Positions 32,101 to 50,498 are shown, counted from the whole stretch's first letter. The stretch is DNA of 54,130 bases, filler included, from Catajapyx aquilonaris (GCA_000934665.2; 2 parts of 2 records of this genome joined end to end with filler, not necessarily neighbours in it), one strand, 5' to 3'. Numbers and translations: made by a program. Notes: generated by a model not told the origin, from the sequence alone.

Positions 32101-34500
32101 ATGTGTCTATATTAGAGTCTGGGTCTGTCACTTGTATTCTGCATATCAGTAAGTGCTACCGGTAAAAGTGCTGCTAACAGTTATGTCGCCATAACAATGA
32201 ATATTCCACCGTAAACAGGGTAGGTCTCAGACGTCTGGTCGGGAAGATGAGTTTCTTTTCTTGACGTGAAGCACGCATAATTTATCAGTAATTGAAGTGA
32301 AGCACTTTGACGCACGCCTATCTTGTGGTATAGCATTGTTCAATTGAACGAATTCCTGCCTCTATTGAACGGCAAAGAAAAGGGTAATAAAACGTGACGA
32401 TATGCTGGCTCGTCATCGTAGTTGATATAAGGAGGCAAGAAGAAAGCACGCATTCTCAGTCCAACAGGTAGTGGTGGTGGTTCGTCTGAGCTAGAGGCGC
32501 TGACGTCAAGATGAATTCCTTTGTGTTCATCATTGGAACGCTGTCCGTCATCTCCGTCGTGATTCAGCCGAGCCATGGAGACCTGGGAGGTACTAATACG
32601 GGGTGTAACAGAGCGGTTTTCTTAGAGTCGTATGTCTCGAGTGCAGTGGCGTAACTAGCCTCGAGGTCTATAAGGGGGGGGGGGGGNGGTAGAGCCCCTC
32701 CCTCCCATTCCCTCCACAAGAGCTTATTCTAAGGCATTTCTAGAAGTGCACAAAAGGCATGCTCATCTTGTCGTAATCGGGGAAATGAGAAAAAGCAAGA
32801 AGCCAGCCGCAGGCGGAATTTTTTAAAGGTTCAAGGTCGCTCAGGCTTAGGTGAATTTAATAACTGACAGTGGAATCATCCTATACTGTAAGCACATCGC
32901 ATAAGCAAGTTCCCTTCATATTTTCAGCAGTGCCAATGTACGAGTAAGCCTACAGTTGAATCCGGATATAACCGGATAATTGTGTGCTATTTTCTGACTG
33001 CACAAGTCCATATTCCGAACTGCACATTTGGCTTTTATAACTGCAGAAATTGTGTAGAACTGTACGCTACAGTAAACCCTGCGGATTTGCTGGTAGAGTC
33101 ATATTTCTTTCAAATATTTAGTTTTAAAGGACCTCGCACCAGATAAGCGATGTTATGGCTAACAAACGGTTTTGATGATCATATAATTCATGTTCTTAAT
33201 TGACATAGCTTCAACGTAACTCGAAAAATAAGATTTTTCCCCCAGTATCTTAAATTTTCCATTGCTTGAAAATTTTTGTCCCCCTAGCGCCCCCCCCCCC
33301 CCCCNNCCCCCCCCCCCCCCCCAGTTACGCCAATGCTCGAGTGGTGACATGGGGATAAGATCAGAAATGGTGGGACTCTGCATTTGAGATATACCGGTAC
33401 CTCTGATTTTGTCTCAGGTTGCAAACATTTCTTTTTATCTGTTCCTCTGTAGTCGAACAATCCACTTTTCCGCCCCTGCAGACTTGGGCACCATCTTAAG
33501 AGGAGTGACCAAACTGCTCCAAGCAGCAGAGAGCGCCATGGCAAAATCGGGTGGAGGAGGAGGAGGAGGAGGTGGAGGCGGTGGTGGAGGTGGAAAAGGA
33601 AAAGGGGGGAAAGACAAGAAGAAAGATAAGGGCGGCTTGGGAACGCGAAACTTGGATTACCCAACGGAGAATGAATTGTCCGAGGAGCAATTAAACGTTC
33701 GAGGTGCGGATTCAGAAGCCGATTCAGACGAACTGCACGTTCGCGCAATGGACGCCCAAAGCAGCGAGGAAGGCAACGAGCACATGAACGAGTACCTTAA
33801 GATGCTCCAGGACAACATGATGTTAACGGTGGTTCAGTTGCACCCTAATCAGAGGGCGGTGGCAAAGCGATTCTTCACACAAGTTTCCCACAGGATAGCT
33901 GATGTGGGTGATGACTATGACGGAAGTTACCTAGACCTTGGCAAGCAAGTGATGTCGGAGATGGATCCTGACGACCGGAAGGAGATTTCTGGGTTCCAGC
34001 ACCTCTTGCTTAAGGCTTTGAATCCCGATATGTCTCTGGAAGGAGAAGATGGCGAAGAAATTGATCCCAAGGACGTCCTGATCGAAGCCATGCATCTGCT
34101 CTCAGACGAGGACAAGGCTGCCGCCATCGAATACGGCCAGATTGTGCTCAAGGCTATGCACAAGATGCCCGCTCCTGAGGAGGACGGTCTCGGAGTTCGC
34201 TCTTTCGGAGGAGACGACGAAAACACCGCTTTTCTCAAGGCCTTTGCCAAGCTGCCACAGGACGAGAGGGAAAATGCGGCCAAATTCGGAGAATTGCTCG
34301 CTAGGACTGTCGAAAATTTGTCGCCAGAGAAGAGAAAGTCGCTTAGGGACTTCACCAAGCTCCTTGCTAAAGCGGCTGGAGCGCCTGGTGTCGCCCACAT
34401 TATTGCTGAAAACGATGTCGACGAAGACGACACTGCCGATGATGATAACAACTCTTCCTACCAGTATGACGACGGAGACGACGATGATAAACGAAGATAG
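32101..34500 (+). CDS. Unknown acidic protein A (LGVR-motif/helical-module family), probably secreted
   Basis: The main exon is 33482-34500 (CCCCTGCAG| acceptor, phase 1, DLGTILRGVTKLL...). It encodes a poly-Gly/Lys linker, LNVRG/LHVRA/LGVRS motifs, helical modules and an Asp-rich tail, with AATAAA at about 34572. A candidate signal-peptide exon at 32101-32161 (MCLY*SLGLSLVFCISVSAT, phase-1 donor) contains an in-frame TAG. Confidence 0.7.
32644..33335. mobile_element. hAT-type MITE with an 8-bp target duplication
   Basis: The termini are CAGTGGCGTAACT and AGTTACGCCA(A)TG, with inner poly-G and poly-C. CTCGAGTG flanks both sides (32636-32643 and 33336-33343). Confidence 0.88.
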
Positions 34501-47848: not shown

Positions 47849-50498
47849 TAGTGGTGGTGGTGGTGGTAGTTTTGTTGTTGTAGTAACTCATGGAAACTTC
47901 TAGGTTGATTATGTTTAGAAGTGTCACCACTTCTGCATCATAATACAGACAGACTACTCTTACAGGTAGTTGAGAGACGCTGCCTTGTCATAATGAAATT
48001 GCTTCTTTTGTATATGTTCCATGTGAGCTTCAAATAACCGCTATGATGGCGTATTATCGGTATCATCATTATTTGGACTATATGCGCCTAATAGCCAAGA
48101 CCTTTCATTACTGTTCATCCGATATGCTCCTTGGCGTCCTTGCATACATATTTGATACCTCACCTCCCTGTGAAAAAAGTACGTGTCCCGCATGAGCGAA
48201 ATGACCTTGAAATATGCAGTGATCCCTTTGTATGTCACTACTAAAGGAGCTAAGTTTGCATTATCAAGTGCAAATAATCAGTAGCTAAGTTTTAAACTTA
48301 CTCTCATCTTATAAATTATGTAATTCTTGTAATTCACATTTTCTGATTTTTAAAATTGAGTAGGTTTACTCTCGGCATATAAATACGGGATAAAAATCAG
48401 TTCGGTTTGATAACAGCTCTATTTTACATTACCTATAGGCAATACACTAGCTTCTACTGGAGAAGACGTAGCTGGTGACTCGGAATTGGGTGTCAGAGCA
48501 CTGGAAGAAGAAAGCACAGCCGAGCCTGCCGAAGAAGACTTATTGGGTGTCAGAGCACTGGAAGAAGAAAGCACAGCCGAGCCTGCCGAAGAAGACTTAT
48601 TGGGTGTCAGAGCACTGGAAGAAGAAAGCACAGCCGAGCCTGCAGAAGAAGACTCATTGGGTGTCAGAGCACTGGAAGAAGAAAGCACAGCCGAGCCTGC
48701 AGAAGAAGGCTTGGGTGTCAGAGCACTAGAAGAAGAAAGCACAGCCGAGCCTGCAGGAGAAGACTTGGGTGTTAGAGCACTGGAAGAAGAAAGCACAGCC
48801 GAGCCTGCAGAAGAAGGCTTGGGTGTTAGAGCACTAGAAGAAGAAAGCACAGCCGAGCCTGCAGGAGAAGACTTGGGTGTTAGAGCACTGGAAGAAGAAA
48901 GCACAGCCGAGCCTGCAGAAGAAGGCTTGGGTGTCAGAGCACTAGAAGAAGAAAGCACAGCCGAGCCTGCAGGAGAAGACTTGGGTGTTAGAGCACTGGA
49001 AGAAGAAAGCACAGCCGAGCCTGCAGGAGAAGACTTGGGTGTTAGAGCACTGGAAGAAGAAAGCACAGCCGAGCCTGCAGAAGAAGGCTTGGGTGTCAGA
49101 GCACTAGAAGAAGAAGGCACAGCCGAGCCTGCAGGAGAAGACTTGGGTGTTAGAGCACTGGAAGAAGAAAGCACAGCCGAGCCTGCAGGAGAAGACTTGG
49201 GTGTTAGAGCACTGGAAGAAGAAAGCACAGCCGAGCCTGCAGGAGAAGACTTGGGTGTTAGAGCACTGGAAGAAGAAAGCACAGCCGAGCCTGCAGAAGA
49301 AGGCTTGGGTGTCAGAGCACTAGAAGAAGAAGGCACAGCCGAGCCTGCAGAAGAAGGCTTGGGTGTCAGAGCACTGGAAGAAGAAAGCACAGCCGAGCCT
49401 GCAGAAGAAGACTTATTGGGTGTTAGAGCACTGGAAGAAGAAAGCACAGCCGAACCTGCAGGAGAAGACTTGGGTGTTAGAGCACTGGAAGAAGAAAGCA
49501 CAGCCGAGCCTGCAGGAGAAGGCTTGGGTGTGAGAGCACTAGAAGAAGAAAGCACAGCCGAGTCTGCAGGGGAAGACTTATTGGGTGTTCGAGCACTCGA
49601 TATAGGGGATGAGCACGACGAAATTCCCGACAGTGCAGAAATCAAAACCGCATCTGCTTATAAAGAACATATTTCTCAAGCTCTTGCACATATCCACGAC
49701 AATCATATGCCTATGGTCAAGAAGGTTTTTGACAGAATTTTCGATTTAGGCAACCAGCACAAGGACAAAATGAGTAAGGGTGCCTTGTCAAATGCTGGAA
49801 TCGCCTTGTTAGACGAATTGGATGAGGAAGAGAAGGCAGCACTTGCTTCTCTTATAAAGATGGTTAGTAAAGTAAAAGGAGGAGCAACTGGAGAAGCAGC
49901 CGTGAGTATCGGCAACGAATTCTTAGATATGCGCGCTCTAAGTGAAGAGATAGGGGGCACAATAGAAATGATTAATGTCAGACATCTCAGCTCTCAGGCT
50001 GCGGAGTTTCTGTCCATTGAAGAGAAACAGCTGGTAGAGGAAGGTACCGCTGTTATTGAAAAGGCTTTAGAACTGACTCAGTCGGAGCACGGAAATGAAG
50101 AGACTGCCCGTGGGGACACAGTTAGCCAAGAGTTACTGATAATAGCATTCCGCTGTTTGCTAGGTGAAGACAGGCTATTGGTAGGGAAGTTAGGAGAGCT
50201 GCTGGAAAAGGCCACGTCATCAGGCATGCCCGATGATTTGCTACGACCAATGAAATTATTAATAGACACCATCAAGGAGATAGTGGTCAACCCCCCTCGT
50301 GCCACACCGGATGATTACTTGCTCATTTTGGAACGCTCCTTCGCCAACGATAACTCGCTGAAGTCGTCAGCAGAAAGAGGACCTGCGGAATATGTCGGAG
50401 AACAAGGAGAAAACCAAGAGGCGTATAATTACCAGAACAGTTATGATTATGACAAACACATTAACGATCTCAGAGAAGAATCAAATTTGAATAGTTAA
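42155..50498 (+). CDS. Unknown giant acidic repeat protein B (~2250 aa), paralog of protein A
   Basis: Exon 42155-46849 (GCAG|AT CTC GAA..., DLELILTGMTKLV...) ends at GAA G|GTACTC. It splices in phase to CCTATAG|GC AAT at 48439 and continues to the stop at 50498. Both exons are uninterrupted ORFs. The first (signal) exon was not identified. Confidence 0.85.
43855..44250 (+). repeat. Coding tandem array 1: 60-bp units encoding EELGV[R/I]ALEEGSE[H/P]TT[A/E]A[A/T/P]G
   Basis: The 60-nt period is directly visible, with about 6.5 units. Confidence 0.95.
45945..46390 (+). repeat. Coding tandem array 2: 60-bp units encoding EELGV[R/T/K]AL[E/D]EGSEHTTAAAG
   Basis: The 60-nt period is directly visible, with about 7 units. 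Confidence 0.95.
47777..47847. repeat. (TAG)n microsatellite in the intron of gene B
   Basis: The trinucleotide run is directly visible. Confidence 0.95.
48486..49598 (+). repeat. Coding tandem array 3: 20 units of 54/57 bp encoding LGVRALEEESTAEPA[G/E]E[D/G](L)
   Basis: Counted from the translation, there are 20 full 18-19 aa units plus a final LGVRAL. Confidence 0.95.

What the first reader, a model, noticed from the sequence alone, without database searches (positions are those of the whole stretch)
33482..50498. Unassigned two-gene family of acidic proteins punctuated by L-G-V-R-[A/S] motifs: a candidate protease-processed secreted polyprotein system
Seen: genes A and B begin their main exons with a phase-1 acceptor and a homologous N-terminus (DLGTILRGVTKLLQAA vs DLELILTGMTKLVRIS), followed by a Gly/Ser/Lys-rich linker. 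Both then alternate acidic spacers with helical modules. The pentapeptide [L/I]-x-V-R-[A/S/G/H] recurs outside the tandem arrays in both genes (LNVRG, LHVRA and LGVRS in A; LAVRA, LGVRS, LGVRA and INVRH in B, plus LDMRA and QGIRA variants). Conservation across unrelated sequence contexts suggests the motif itself is selected. Inference: a lone Arg in acidic surroundings followed by a small residue looks like a trypsin-family cleavage site. Cleavage would release about 20 near-identical peptides (ALEEESTAEPAGEDLGVR-type) plus separate helical domains. Possible roles include a glandular secretion, seminal or spermatophore material, cement, clot or venom. I recognise no described family.
Basis: partly seen in the sequence, partly recalled or inferred. 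Interest (0 to 1): 0.85.

Follow-up and report, generated by a model that had tools for sequence, protein, structure and literature searches.

The report
Orphan secreted acidic repeat-protein gene pair
Two neighbouring genes in an arthropod-type genome encode secreted, extremely acidic proteins made of helical modules and amplified short repeats that share a conserved Leu-Gly-Val-Arg-Ala motif; no relatives were found, and whether the motif is a protease cutting site is still untested.

Summary
Gene A (365 aa) and gene B (2278 aa) are real, weakly paralogous genes. I found the signal-peptide exon of each, upstream of the reported start, and all introns are phase 1.

Both mature proteins are nearly Cys-free and very acidic: pI 4.55 and 4.17, net charge about -30 and -373. 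They alternate all-helical units of about 200 aa with acidic repeats.

The motif is better written E-[ED]-L-G-V-R-[AS]-[LMF]. It is far above chance outside the arrays (0 of 5000 shuffles reach the observed counts). Its residues are kept while synonymous codons turn over; Arg uses CGA, CGC, AGA and AGG.

No family, fold or homologue was found. A control query shows the protein database does cover arthropods.

Cleavage at Arg is untested, and the evidence is mixed. Arg is the only basic residue in the big array, 21 of 21 copies. It is replaced by Ile or Thr (Lys once) in 9 of 15 copies of the two younger arrays. No RNA run was listed.

The scan had not noted this family on other DNA.

Verdict: a lineage-restricted orphan secreted family of moderate interest.

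The parts
32251..32510 (+). Gene A promoter region: TATA-like GATATAA at 32424 (87 nt before the ATG), a TCAGT initiator-like element about 30 nt downstream of it, and the densest cluster of TGACG/CGTCA (CRE/ATF-type) half-sites in the window, including a full TGACGTCA at 32501
   Evidence: There are 7 half-sites in 300 nt against a window mean of 0.47. TGACGCAC occurs only twice in the window, at 32308 and 37958, each upstream of one of the two genes.
32511..32589 (+). Gene A exon 1: start codon and a signal-peptide-like hydrophobic N-terminus (MNSFVFIIGTLSVISVVIQPSHG...), donor GTACTA, phase 1
   Evidence: The join to 33482 gives an open 365-codon frame.
32643..33336 (.). Element of about 690 bp in intron 1 of gene A, flanked by inverted repeats with G-run and C-run arms; it contains N positions
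   Evidence: arms 32643-32692 and 33284-33336.
33482..34500 (+). Gene A exon 2 (phase-1 acceptor, stop included). It holds the N-terminal amphipathic helix, a poly-Gly/Lys linker, degenerate acidic repeats with LNVRG and LHVRA, a helical unit with LGVRSF in a loop, and an Asp/Tyr-rich tail ending in KRR
33754..34452 (+). Helical unit of gene A (aa 118-350)
   Evidence: Alignments A1 and A3. The AF2 model has 10 helices and mean pLDDT 63.7.
34572..34577 (+). First AATAAA after the stop of gene A
38224..38305 (+). Gene B exon 1: start codon and a signal-peptide-like N-terminus (MNPLSYLLTAAAVTCVLIQPSLQG...), donor GTACTT, phase 1. A TATA-like GATATAA lies at 38099
   Evidence: pattern search; alignment to the A N-terminus.
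42155..46849 (+). Gene B exon 2 (phase 1 at both ends, 4695 nt). It holds the N-terminal helix, a Ser/Lys linker, 14-aa acidic repeats, helical units 1-3, internal segmental duplications, and arrays 1 and 2
42520..43107 (+). B helical unit 1 (aa 150-345), with LAVRAM and LGVRSF
43858..44243 (+). Array 1: 60-nt unit x 6.4, 94% matches. Units read ALEEGSE[HP]TT..GEELGV[R/I]; Arg is kept in 4 of 7 copies
44425..45042 (+). B helical unit 2 (aa 785-990)
45206..45747 (+). 270-nt direct duplication (2.0 copies, 95% matches) that carries the PLGV[E/D]AQ variant and a short helical module
45949..46382 (+). Array 2: 60-nt unit x 7.2, 96% matches. Arg is kept in 2 of 8 copies, with Thr in 5 and Lys in 1
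46435..46707 (+). B helical unit 3, a short form (aa 1455-1545)
48439..50498 (+). Gene B exon 3 (phase-1 acceptor, stop included): array 3, helical unit 4 and an acidic Tyr-rich tail
48486..49597 (+). Array 3: 54-nt unit x 20.3, 93% matches. It has 21 of 21 LGVRA copies; Arg is its only basic residue
49629..50366 (+). B helical unit 4 (aa 1990-2235), containing LDMRAL and INVRHL
   Evidence: AF2 model with 11 helices, mean pLDDT 67.4.
51208..51213 (+). First AATAAA after the stop of gene B, 710 nt downstream

Best explanation
A and B are real, paralogous, lineage-restricted genes for secreted, almost Cys-free, polyanionic modular proteins. Mature A is about 37 kDa with net charge about -30. 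Mature B is about 241 kDa with net charge about -373.

Each protein is built in the same order:
- a signal peptide;
- a conserved amphipathic N-terminal helix;
- a basic or Gly/Ser linker;
- alternating all-helical units of about 200 aa and disordered acidic repeats.

The repeats and several inter-helix loops carry one short linear motif, E-[ED]-L-G-V-R-[AS]-[LMF]-acidic. Purifying selection keeps it at the peptide level.

Most likely working (inferred, about 35-40%): the proteins are exported as polyanionic precursors or scaffolds. The exposed motifs are recognition sites for an Arg-specific secreted endoprotease of the trypsin or clip-domain type, which cuts between Arg and the small residue. 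B would then be fragmented into helical modules and acidic linker peptides of about 18-40 aa. Because conservation is centred on the site and not on the peptide body, the selected function would be controlled fragmentation of a secreted material, not production of a specific bioactive peptide.

Shown: gene structures, secretion signals, paralogy, modular architecture, motif enrichment and codon-level conservation, and absence of detectable relatives.

Inferred: disorder of the arrays, cleavage, the protease class, and any physiological role.
For: GENE MODELS
- Phase-1 splice joins give uninterrupted frames of 365 and 2278 codons.
- The first exons are homologous and hydrophobic, with matching donors.
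- A-versus-B BLASTP E-values are 1e-6 with composition adjustment and 1e-9 without it.
- Internal duplicates in B give Ka/Ks of 0.18 and 0.25 for segments Z and X.
- A TATA-like element and shared upstream motifs precede both genes.

ARCHITECTURE
- Five helical units align with each other.
- AF2 models of two units are all-helical, with mean pLDDT 67.4 and 63.7.

MOTIF
- 0 of 5000 shuffles reach the observed counts in A or in B outside the arrays.
- Among 19 lineage representatives: L 18, G 14, V 16, R 14 (plus K 1), A/S 17, and L/M/F/I at the next position 15.
- Codon use at the kept residues: Leu 5 codons, Val 4, Arg 4 (CGA 4, CGC 3, AGA 5, AGG 2), Ala 4.

FOR CLEAVAGE
- Arg is the only basic residue in array 3: R 21, K 0, H 0, D+E 124 of 374 aa.
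- The residue after Arg is A, S or G in 18 of 19 representatives.
- LGVRSF in A falls in a low-pLDDT loop, model residues 141-152.
- The 42-aa two-repeat piece folded with pLDDT under 50, used here only as a hint of disorder.
Against: - There is no expression, peptide or orthologue evidence at all. No RNA run was listed and no genome is held for this window.
- Arg is not kept in many copies: 4 of 7 in array 1 and 2 of 8 in array 2, with Ile x3, Thr x5 and Lys x1 in its place. The variants LGVEA, LGVDA and LGVQA keep L-G-V-x-A without a basic residue.
- The flanking hydrophobic positions (L at -3, V at -1, L/M/F at +2) are conserved as strongly as Arg. That fits a binding or structural motif equally well.
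- INVRHL lies at the N-terminus of a helix modelled at pLDDT 78-91 inside unit 4, so it would not be a free linker site.
- The helical units contain many other Arg and Lys residues, so a dedicated protease, not a generic trypsin, would be required.
- Ka/Ks for the Y duplicates is 0.6-1.5 on small counts. Parts of B may therefore be under weak constraint.
Confidence: 0.38

Rival explanations
1. Uncleaved multivalent scaffold. The motif is a short linear binding or structural element, a 'sticker' at the junction of an acidic spacer and a short helix start. It is repeated about 50 times in a secreted polyanionic protein that forms a gel, coat, plug or adhesive matrix, possibly binding the helical units or another partner.
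For: - L, G, V and the hydrophobic residue at +2 are conserved as well as Arg, and L-G-V-x-A survives where Arg is lost.
- The Ile and Thr variants were amplified within arrays 1 and 2.
- INVRHL is built into a confidently modelled helix start.
- The layout alternates folded helical domains with repeated motifs.
Against: - No partner is known.
- Arg is retained across both codon families, and is the lone basic residue in 21 of 21 copies of the largest array. A purely hydrophobic sticker does not explain that.
Confidence: 0.3
2. Calcium- or mineral-binding acidic matrix protein, for example of a calcified cuticle or another mineralised or ion-buffering secretion. The acidic repeats would bind cations, and the motif would be incidental to repeat amplification.
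For: - D+E make up 19.7% of A and 23.7% of B; Cys counts are 0 and 2; repeats are abundant; A has an Asp-rich tail.
- Both proteins have secretion signals.
- The genome is of arthropod type.
Against: - The only chitin-related hit, Pfam CBL, is an additive artefact of the repeats.
- Motif conservation in old, non-array copies with codon turnover is not explained by cation binding.
- Whether the animal mineralises anything is unknown.
Confidence: 0.15
3. Granin-like cargo of the regulated secretory pathway: an acidic, sulphated precursor stored in dense-core granules of neuroendocrine or gland cells and processed there.
For: - Low pI, secretion signals and a conserved amphipathic N-terminal helix (muH 1.62 and 1.37).
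- Tyr residues in acidic contexts in both C-terminal tails and at B 384 and 778.
- A cluster of CRE/ATF-type half-sites upstream of gene A.
Against: - No granin signature or Pfam hit.
- Dibasic sites are few and none lies at a repeat boundary.
- The sulphation and CRE readings are inference only.
Confidence: 0.08
4. Fast-evolving, weakly constrained or decaying repeat-bearing ORFs with no specific function, with the motif carried along by repeat amplification.
For: - No homologues were found.
- Ka/Ks is 0.6-1.5 for the Y duplicates.
- No expression evidence was obtained.
Against: - Open frames of 4.7 kb and 2.1 kb join in phase, and signal exons are conserved between the paralogues.
- Ka/Ks is 0.18-0.25 for other duplicates.
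- The motif is retained at saturated synonymous divergence between old copies.
Confidence: 0.06

Closest known systems
Nematode polyprotein allergens/antigens (ABA-1 type); named from recall, not fetched here
   Same: Secreted precursors made of tandem helix-rich units of 100-200 aa with few or no disulphides, joined by short conserved basic sites.
   Different: - Those units are cut at tetrabasic furin-type sites. Here the unit boundaries carry a single Arg in an acidic context.
- Here long acidic arrays separate the units.
- No sequence or fold similarity was detected.
Kex2/furin-processed repeat proteins and multi-copy peptide precursors (yeast alpha-factor, fungal KEPs, arthropod multi-copy neuropeptide or antimicrobial-peptide precursors); recalled
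   Same: A signal peptide followed by many near-identical short units, each ending in a conserved basic residue, with acidic spacers.
   Different: - No dibasic sites at unit ends and no Gly before the Arg for amidation.
- The conserved part straddles the putative cut instead of lying inside the peptide.
- Arg is missing in 9 of 15 copies of arrays 1 and 2.
Granins (chromogranins and secretogranins); recalled
   Same: Secreted, heat-stable-type acidic proteins with low pI, few Cys, Tyr in acidic contexts, and processing into fragments.
   Different: - No granin motif or Pfam match.
- Few dibasic sites.
- Helical 200-aa units and tandem arrays are not granin features.
Acidic intrinsically disordered biomineralisation proteins (for example molluscan Aspein; seen only as a title and abstract start in the listing)
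   Same: Secreted, extremely acidic, repetitive and largely disordered.
   Different: Glu-rich rather than Asp-rich, with folded helical modules and a conserved Arg-containing motif. No evidence of a mineralising tissue.
Arg-specific clotting or complement-type serine-protease sites (for example Leu-Gly-Arg-type substrates of horseshoe-crab clotting enzyme); recalled, a lead only
   Same: Leu and Gly upstream of a P1 Arg, followed by a small residue and then acidic residues.
   Different: Here Val lies between Gly and Arg. No protease, substrate relationship or homology was tested.

Membership tests
Pfam PF18973 CBL (putative chitin-binding-like) | At least one domain stretch matching the profile on its own | tested here: not met
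   The whole-protein score of 32.9-39.4 bits exceeds the cut-off of 25, but with 0 stretches passing. The match covers profile positions 11-31 of 48 only. A three-repeat piece gives no CBL hit, and exon 2 arrays give none. The score is therefore additive over 20 repeats.
Pfam PF11304 DUF3106 | Score at or above the gathering threshold of 24.3 bits | tested here: not met
   11.9 bits, E 0.33, on A residues 283-321.
Convertase-processed polyproteins (nematode polyprotein allergens, Kex2-processed repeat proteins, multi-copy neuropeptide precursors) | Dibasic or tetrabasic sites at the boundaries of the repeated units | tested here: not met
   Dibasic positions listed: 8 in A and 11 in B. None lies inside arrays 1-3 or next to an LGVRA motif.
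Convertase-processed polyproteins | Signal peptide and tandem repeated units | tested here: met
   Signal-peptide-like exons; arrays of 6.4, 7.2 and 20.3 units.
   Array 3 has Arg in 21 of 21 copies, array 1 in 4 of 7, array 2 in 2 of 8 plus 1 Lys. Over all 55 motif-like copies, 39 have R and 1 has K.
Monobasic (trypsin-type) cleaved polyprotein | Observed cleavage products | not testable with these tools
   No RNA or protein data were available; no run was listed.
Granins | Granin sequence signature or family profile match | tested here: not met
   No Pfam family reached threshold for A or B other than the CBL artefact.
Granins | Acidic pI and entry to the secretory pathway | tested here: met
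   pI 4.55 and 4.17; signal-peptide-like N-termini.
Glycolipid-transfer-protein-like helical fold | Structural match clearly above background, reproducible between units | tested here: inconclusive
   Three GLTP entries scored Z 4.8-5.6 for the unit 4 model. None appeared among the 50 rows shown for the unit A model. All Z values are below 8.
Borrelia BTA121-domain lipoprotein (P0001), the only hit of the profile search below 1e-6 | Profile-level homology across a unit | tested here: not met
   hhalign probability is 6.5% over 27 columns, limited to one amphipathic helix.

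The most novel reading that the evidence does not exclude
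An arthropod-lineage invention of a monobasic-site polyprotein. A secreted precursor of about 241 kDa and net charge -373 (B), and its small paralogue (A), would be cut at L-G-V-R|A by a dedicated extracellular serine protease. That would release five Cys-free helical modules of a fold with no detectable relative, plus dozens of highly acidic 18-40-aa peptides. It would be a protease-triggered switch of a secreted material (clot, plug, cement or gel), comparable in logic to coagulogen or semenogelin but unrelated to either.
Probability: 0.25. Interest if true: 0.6.

Novelty: new variant of a known kind. Interest (0 to 1): 0.35.

Why it matters
If the motif is a real processing or recognition site, these genes would define a new secreted substrate-and-protease pair, or a self-assembling material, in an arthropod lineage with few characterised secretions. 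They would also give a natural example of a very large polyanionic protein with a clean, repeated, single-Arg site, which is useful for protein-materials work and for studying protease specificity.

The helical units, about 200 aa each and nearly free of Cys, have no detectable sequence or fold relative. They would be a new extracellular domain.

As it stands, with no expression data and no orthologues, this is one more lineage-restricted repetitive secreted family, a common kind of finding in animal genomes.

Tried and rejected
EXPRESSION AND GENOME ACCESS
- RNA evidence: one search for sequencing runs, with 33482-43481, listed no RNA holder. The first try was one base too long. Read laying could therefore not be used.
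- Whole genome: none is held for this window, so further paralogues could not be sought. Inside the window, tblastn finds no third copy.

HOMOLOGY SEARCHES
- Word-indexed search with mature A: 4204 candidates, none at E <= 0.01, candidate lengths 185-592 only.
- Exhaustive hmmsearch of a five-unit profile against 1,835,955,588 representatives: 2 hits at E <= 0.001.
- Those hits are a Borrelia parkeri plasmid lipoprotein and an Oscillatoria HEAT-like protein. Both match only one amphipathic helix, hhalign probability 6.5%, and were rejected as homologues.
- ESM Atlas: no usable hit.
- PDB sequence search with A: only poly-Gly linker matches.

FOLD SEARCHES
- Foldseek against PDB: 0 matches at E <= 0.001 for either model.
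- VIA-align against 48,161 chains: best Z 6.0 and 5.8, none at 8 or above.
- The glycolipid-transfer-protein hits for unit 4 did not recur for unit A, so that lead was dropped.

OTHER TESTS
- Complex prediction of unit 4 with a two-repeat peptide: no verdict, score 0.00, controls not run. This is not evidence either way.
- Pfam CBL hit: rejected as additive over the repeats.
- Minus-strand ORFs across the arrays (412, 242 and 162 aa, Ser/Pro/Ala-rich): rejected as coding, because they stop at the array edges while the plus-strand frames continue through 4.7 kb and 2.1 kb of non-repetitive sequence.
- Rfam: no RNA family in the window.

LITERATURE
- Six peptide strings, matched anywhere in the text, gave 1 unrelated bacterial Tat paper (PMC10924467, listing only).
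- A keyword search on crustacean acidic tandem-repeat secreted proteins found 25 papers, 15 listed. Titles and abstract starts only were seen, and none describes such a family. These two searches are the only basis for saying the family is not in print.

EARLIER SCAN NOTES
- Nothing near, by sequence, or in relatives.

MOTIF READINGS CONSIDERED FROM RECALL AND NOT PURSUED
- Site-1-protease-type R-x-hydrophobic-x sites; the P1 here would be Glu in the arrays.
- PEXEL-like R-x-L-x-E, which belongs to the wrong kingdom and whose variants do not fit.
- Dipeptidyl-peptidase X-Ala/X-Pro spacers; no alternating pattern is present.

Full report
WHAT IS THERE

The interval holds two genes on the + strand of a eukaryotic, arthropod-type window. 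The neighbours are:
- two tandem DUF4803/orion-like genes;
- a WD40 gene;
- a PXA-domain gene;
- an amiloride-sensitive channel gene;
- a cytochrome P450 gene.

Earlier notes on the same genome also call it arthropod.

Three very long open frames lie at 33388-34500, 42007-46875 and 48414-50498. The + strand is strongly purine-rich across 42-50 kb, with GC skew up to +0.20 and AT skew up to +0.23.

GENE MODELS

Gene A:
- The acceptor AG at 33480-33481 puts the exon start at 33482 in phase 1.
- About 0.9 kb upstream, an ATG at 32511 opens a hydrophobic 23-residue signal-peptide-like sequence. It ends in a phase-1 donor (G|GTACTA) at 32589.
- Joining the two gives an uninterrupted 365-codon frame.

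Gene B:
- A pattern search for ATG, hydrophobic stretch and phase-1 donor between the genes returned 47 candidates. Only one resembles A's first exon: 38224-38305, MNPLSYLLTAAAVTCVLIQPSLQG..., donor G|GTACTT.
- It joins the phase-1 acceptor at 42155.
- The first big exon ends at 46849 (G|GTACTC) and joins 48439, again in phase 1.
- The result is a 2278-codon frame with a single terminal stop.

No signal-peptide predictor was available, so secretion rests on the hydrophobic N-termini and on their conservation between the paralogues.

Supporting signals:
- AATAAA follows the stops at 34572 and 51208.
- A GATATAA element lies 87 and about 125 nt before the two ATGs.
- TGACGCAC occurs only twice in the window, once upstream of each gene.
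- The 300 nt before A's ATG hold the densest cluster of TGACG/CGTCA half-sites in the window, 7 against a mean of 0.47.

Minus-strand ORFs of 412, 242 and 162 aa exist, but only inside the arrays. They are by-products of the repeats.

PARALOGY AND ARCHITECTURE

- A and B align weakly over the N-terminal 245 residues (22% identity, E 1e-6) and over the helical unit.
- MAFFT shows one helical unit of about 200 aa recurring as A 118-350, B 150-345, B 785-990, B 1455-1545 (short) and B 1990-2235. Three short copies of its first hairpin are also present.
- AF2 models of unit 4 and of the A unit are all-helical: 11 and 10 helices, mean pLDDT 67.4 and 63.7. The alignment has only five rows, so confidence is moderate.
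- B also contains segmental duplications and five tandem arrays.
- Mature A is about 37 kDa, pI 4.55, net charge -30. Mature B is about 241 kDa, pI 4.17, net charge -373.
- A has no Cys. B has two, one of them in the signal peptide.
- Both C-terminal tails carry Tyr residues in acidic contexts. From general knowledge these resemble sulphation sites. That is inference only.

ARE THE GENES CONSTRAINED?

- Ka/Ks between internal duplicates of B is 0.25 for segment X (57 codons) and 0.18 for segment Z (73 codons).
- It is 0.60, 0.73 and 1.47 for the three Y comparisons, which rest on only 2-5 synonymous differences each.
- Old units are saturated at synonymous sites, Ks above 1.8.
- Constraint is therefore present but uneven.

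THE MOTIF

- Outside the arrays the counts are 3 in A and 6 in B, against shuffle means of 0.07 and 0.25. 0 of 5000 shuffles reach either count.
- I picked 19 representatives, one per independent lineage of copies. Recent duplicates were collapsed by eye, which is a judgement.
- Among them, L is kept in 18, G in 14, V in 16, R in 14 (plus one K), and A or S in 17.
- The next residue is L, M, F or I in 15, and the residue before L is acidic in most.
- The kept residues use 5 Leu, 4 Val, 4 Arg (CGA 4, CGC 3, AGA 5, AGG 2) and 4 Ala codons.
- The contexts are not unrelated, however. Every copy sits in the same kind of acidic repeat or at a paralogous loop, such as LGVRSF in A and in B unit 1.
- Conservation is centred on the site, from about -2 to +4, while the repeat body differs between arrays: SEHTTAAAG-type against STAEPAG-type, and 20 against 18 residues.

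IS IT A CLEAVAGE SITE?

For:
- Arg is the only basic residue in array 3: R 21, K 0, H 0 in 374 aa with 124 D+E.
- The residue after Arg is small.
- In the A model, LGVRSF lies in a low-confidence loop.

Against:
- Across all 55 motif-like copies the fourth position is R 39, T 5, E 4, I 3, Q 2, D 1, K 1.
- Array 1 keeps Arg in 4 of 7 copies, and array 2 in 2 of 8 plus one Lys.
- The Arg-less variants LGVEA, LGVDA and LGVQA keep the rest of the motif.
- The hydrophobic positions are as conserved as Arg.
- INVRHL is the start of a helix modelled at pLDDT 78-91.
- There are no dibasic sites at unit boundaries, so convertase-type processing is not indicated.

Nothing available here can show cleavage. 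No RNA run was listed, and no genome is held.

COMPARISON WITH KNOWN FAMILIES

Pfam:
- Nothing reaches threshold for A or for B exon 2.
- The CBL hit on exon 3 has no single passing stretch and disappears for a three-repeat piece.
- DUF3106 scores 11.9 bits against a cut-off of 24.3.

Sequence searches:
- The PDB sequence search finds only poly-Gly linkers.
- The word-indexed search gives no hit.
- The exhaustive profile search of 1.84 billion representatives gives two weak bacterial hits. Both match one amphipathic helix only, hhalign probability 6.5%.
- As a control, the neighbouring orion-like ORF finds 199 proteins at E <= 1e-5, mostly named insects, with a best identity of 53%.
- The library therefore covers arthropods but apparently not close relatives of this species. 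'Orphan' here means no relative detectable in the sequenced arthropods held there.

Fold and other searches:
- Fold searches are negative: Foldseek gives 0 matches at E <= 0.001; VIA-align gives best Z 6.0 and 5.8.
- The ESM Atlas gives no usable hit.
- Two literature searches found nothing relevant (listings only).

VERDICT

The proteins look secreted, the family is unassigned, and the motif is selected.
- The protease-processing step remains an inference with mixed sequence evidence.
- I put it at about 35-40%, ahead of an uncleaved multivalent scaffold (about 30%), an acidic cation- or mineral-binding matrix (about 15%), a granin-like cargo (about 8%) and weakly constrained ORFs (about 6%). 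These readings overlap in part.
- The kind of thing, a lineage-restricted, repetitive, acidic secreted protein, is common in animal genomes.
- The clean single-Arg motif and the unmatched helical unit give it moderate interest.

Noticed in passing
window 2947-5729 and 6291-9339, minus strand: Two tandem copies of a DUF4803/orion-like gene. Pfam PF16061 scores E 9.8e-68. The best database relatives are insect 'chemokine-like protein orion' entries at up to 53% identity.
   Followed up: partly
window 32251-32510: The densest cluster of TGACG/CGTCA (CRE/ATF-type bZIP) half-sites in the window, 7 in 300 nt against a mean of 0.47, lies just upstream of gene A. It includes a perfect TGACGTCA 10 nt before the ATG. 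TGACGCAC occurs only at 32308 and 37958, upstream of A and B respectively.
   Followed up: partly
window 32643-33336 (intron 1 of gene A): An element of about 690 bp bounded by inverted repeats (GCAGTGGCGTAACT...G-run and C-run...AGTTACGCCAATGC), with N positions inside the homopolymer runs. It is possibly a foldback or MITE-like insertion, or an assembly-problem spot.
   Followed up: partly
window 47777-47870; 5122-5195; 27787-27981: Microsatellites: (GTA)x31.7 in intron 2 of gene B, (GTTC)x18.5 inside the first orion-like gene region, and an AT-rich minisatellite of about 190 bp.
   Followed up: no
window 48419-49657, 43545-44273 and 45900-46388, minus strand: Long antisense open frames (412, 242 and 162 aa; Ser/Pro/Ala/Thr-rich, mucin-like in composition) are confined to the tandem arrays. 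They are a by-product of the repeats and could mislead gene finders.
   Followed up: yes
window 10759-11998 (+), 14028-16742 (-), 19711-22036 (+), 22616-24316 (-): Ordinary neighbouring genes: a WD40-repeat protein, a PXA-domain (sorting-nexin-type) protein, an amiloride-sensitive sodium channel (ASC) and a cytochrome P450.
   Followed up: partly
window 25577-26734 (+): A 385-aa open frame with no Pfam match that runs into an assembly gap (run of N).
   Followed up: no
window 42404-42526 (+), B aa 112-152: A separate 14-aa acidic repeat (VSEDHVKSAENHIEA type; 42-nt unit x 2.9) lies near the N-terminus of B and lacks the LGVRA motif.
   Followed up: no
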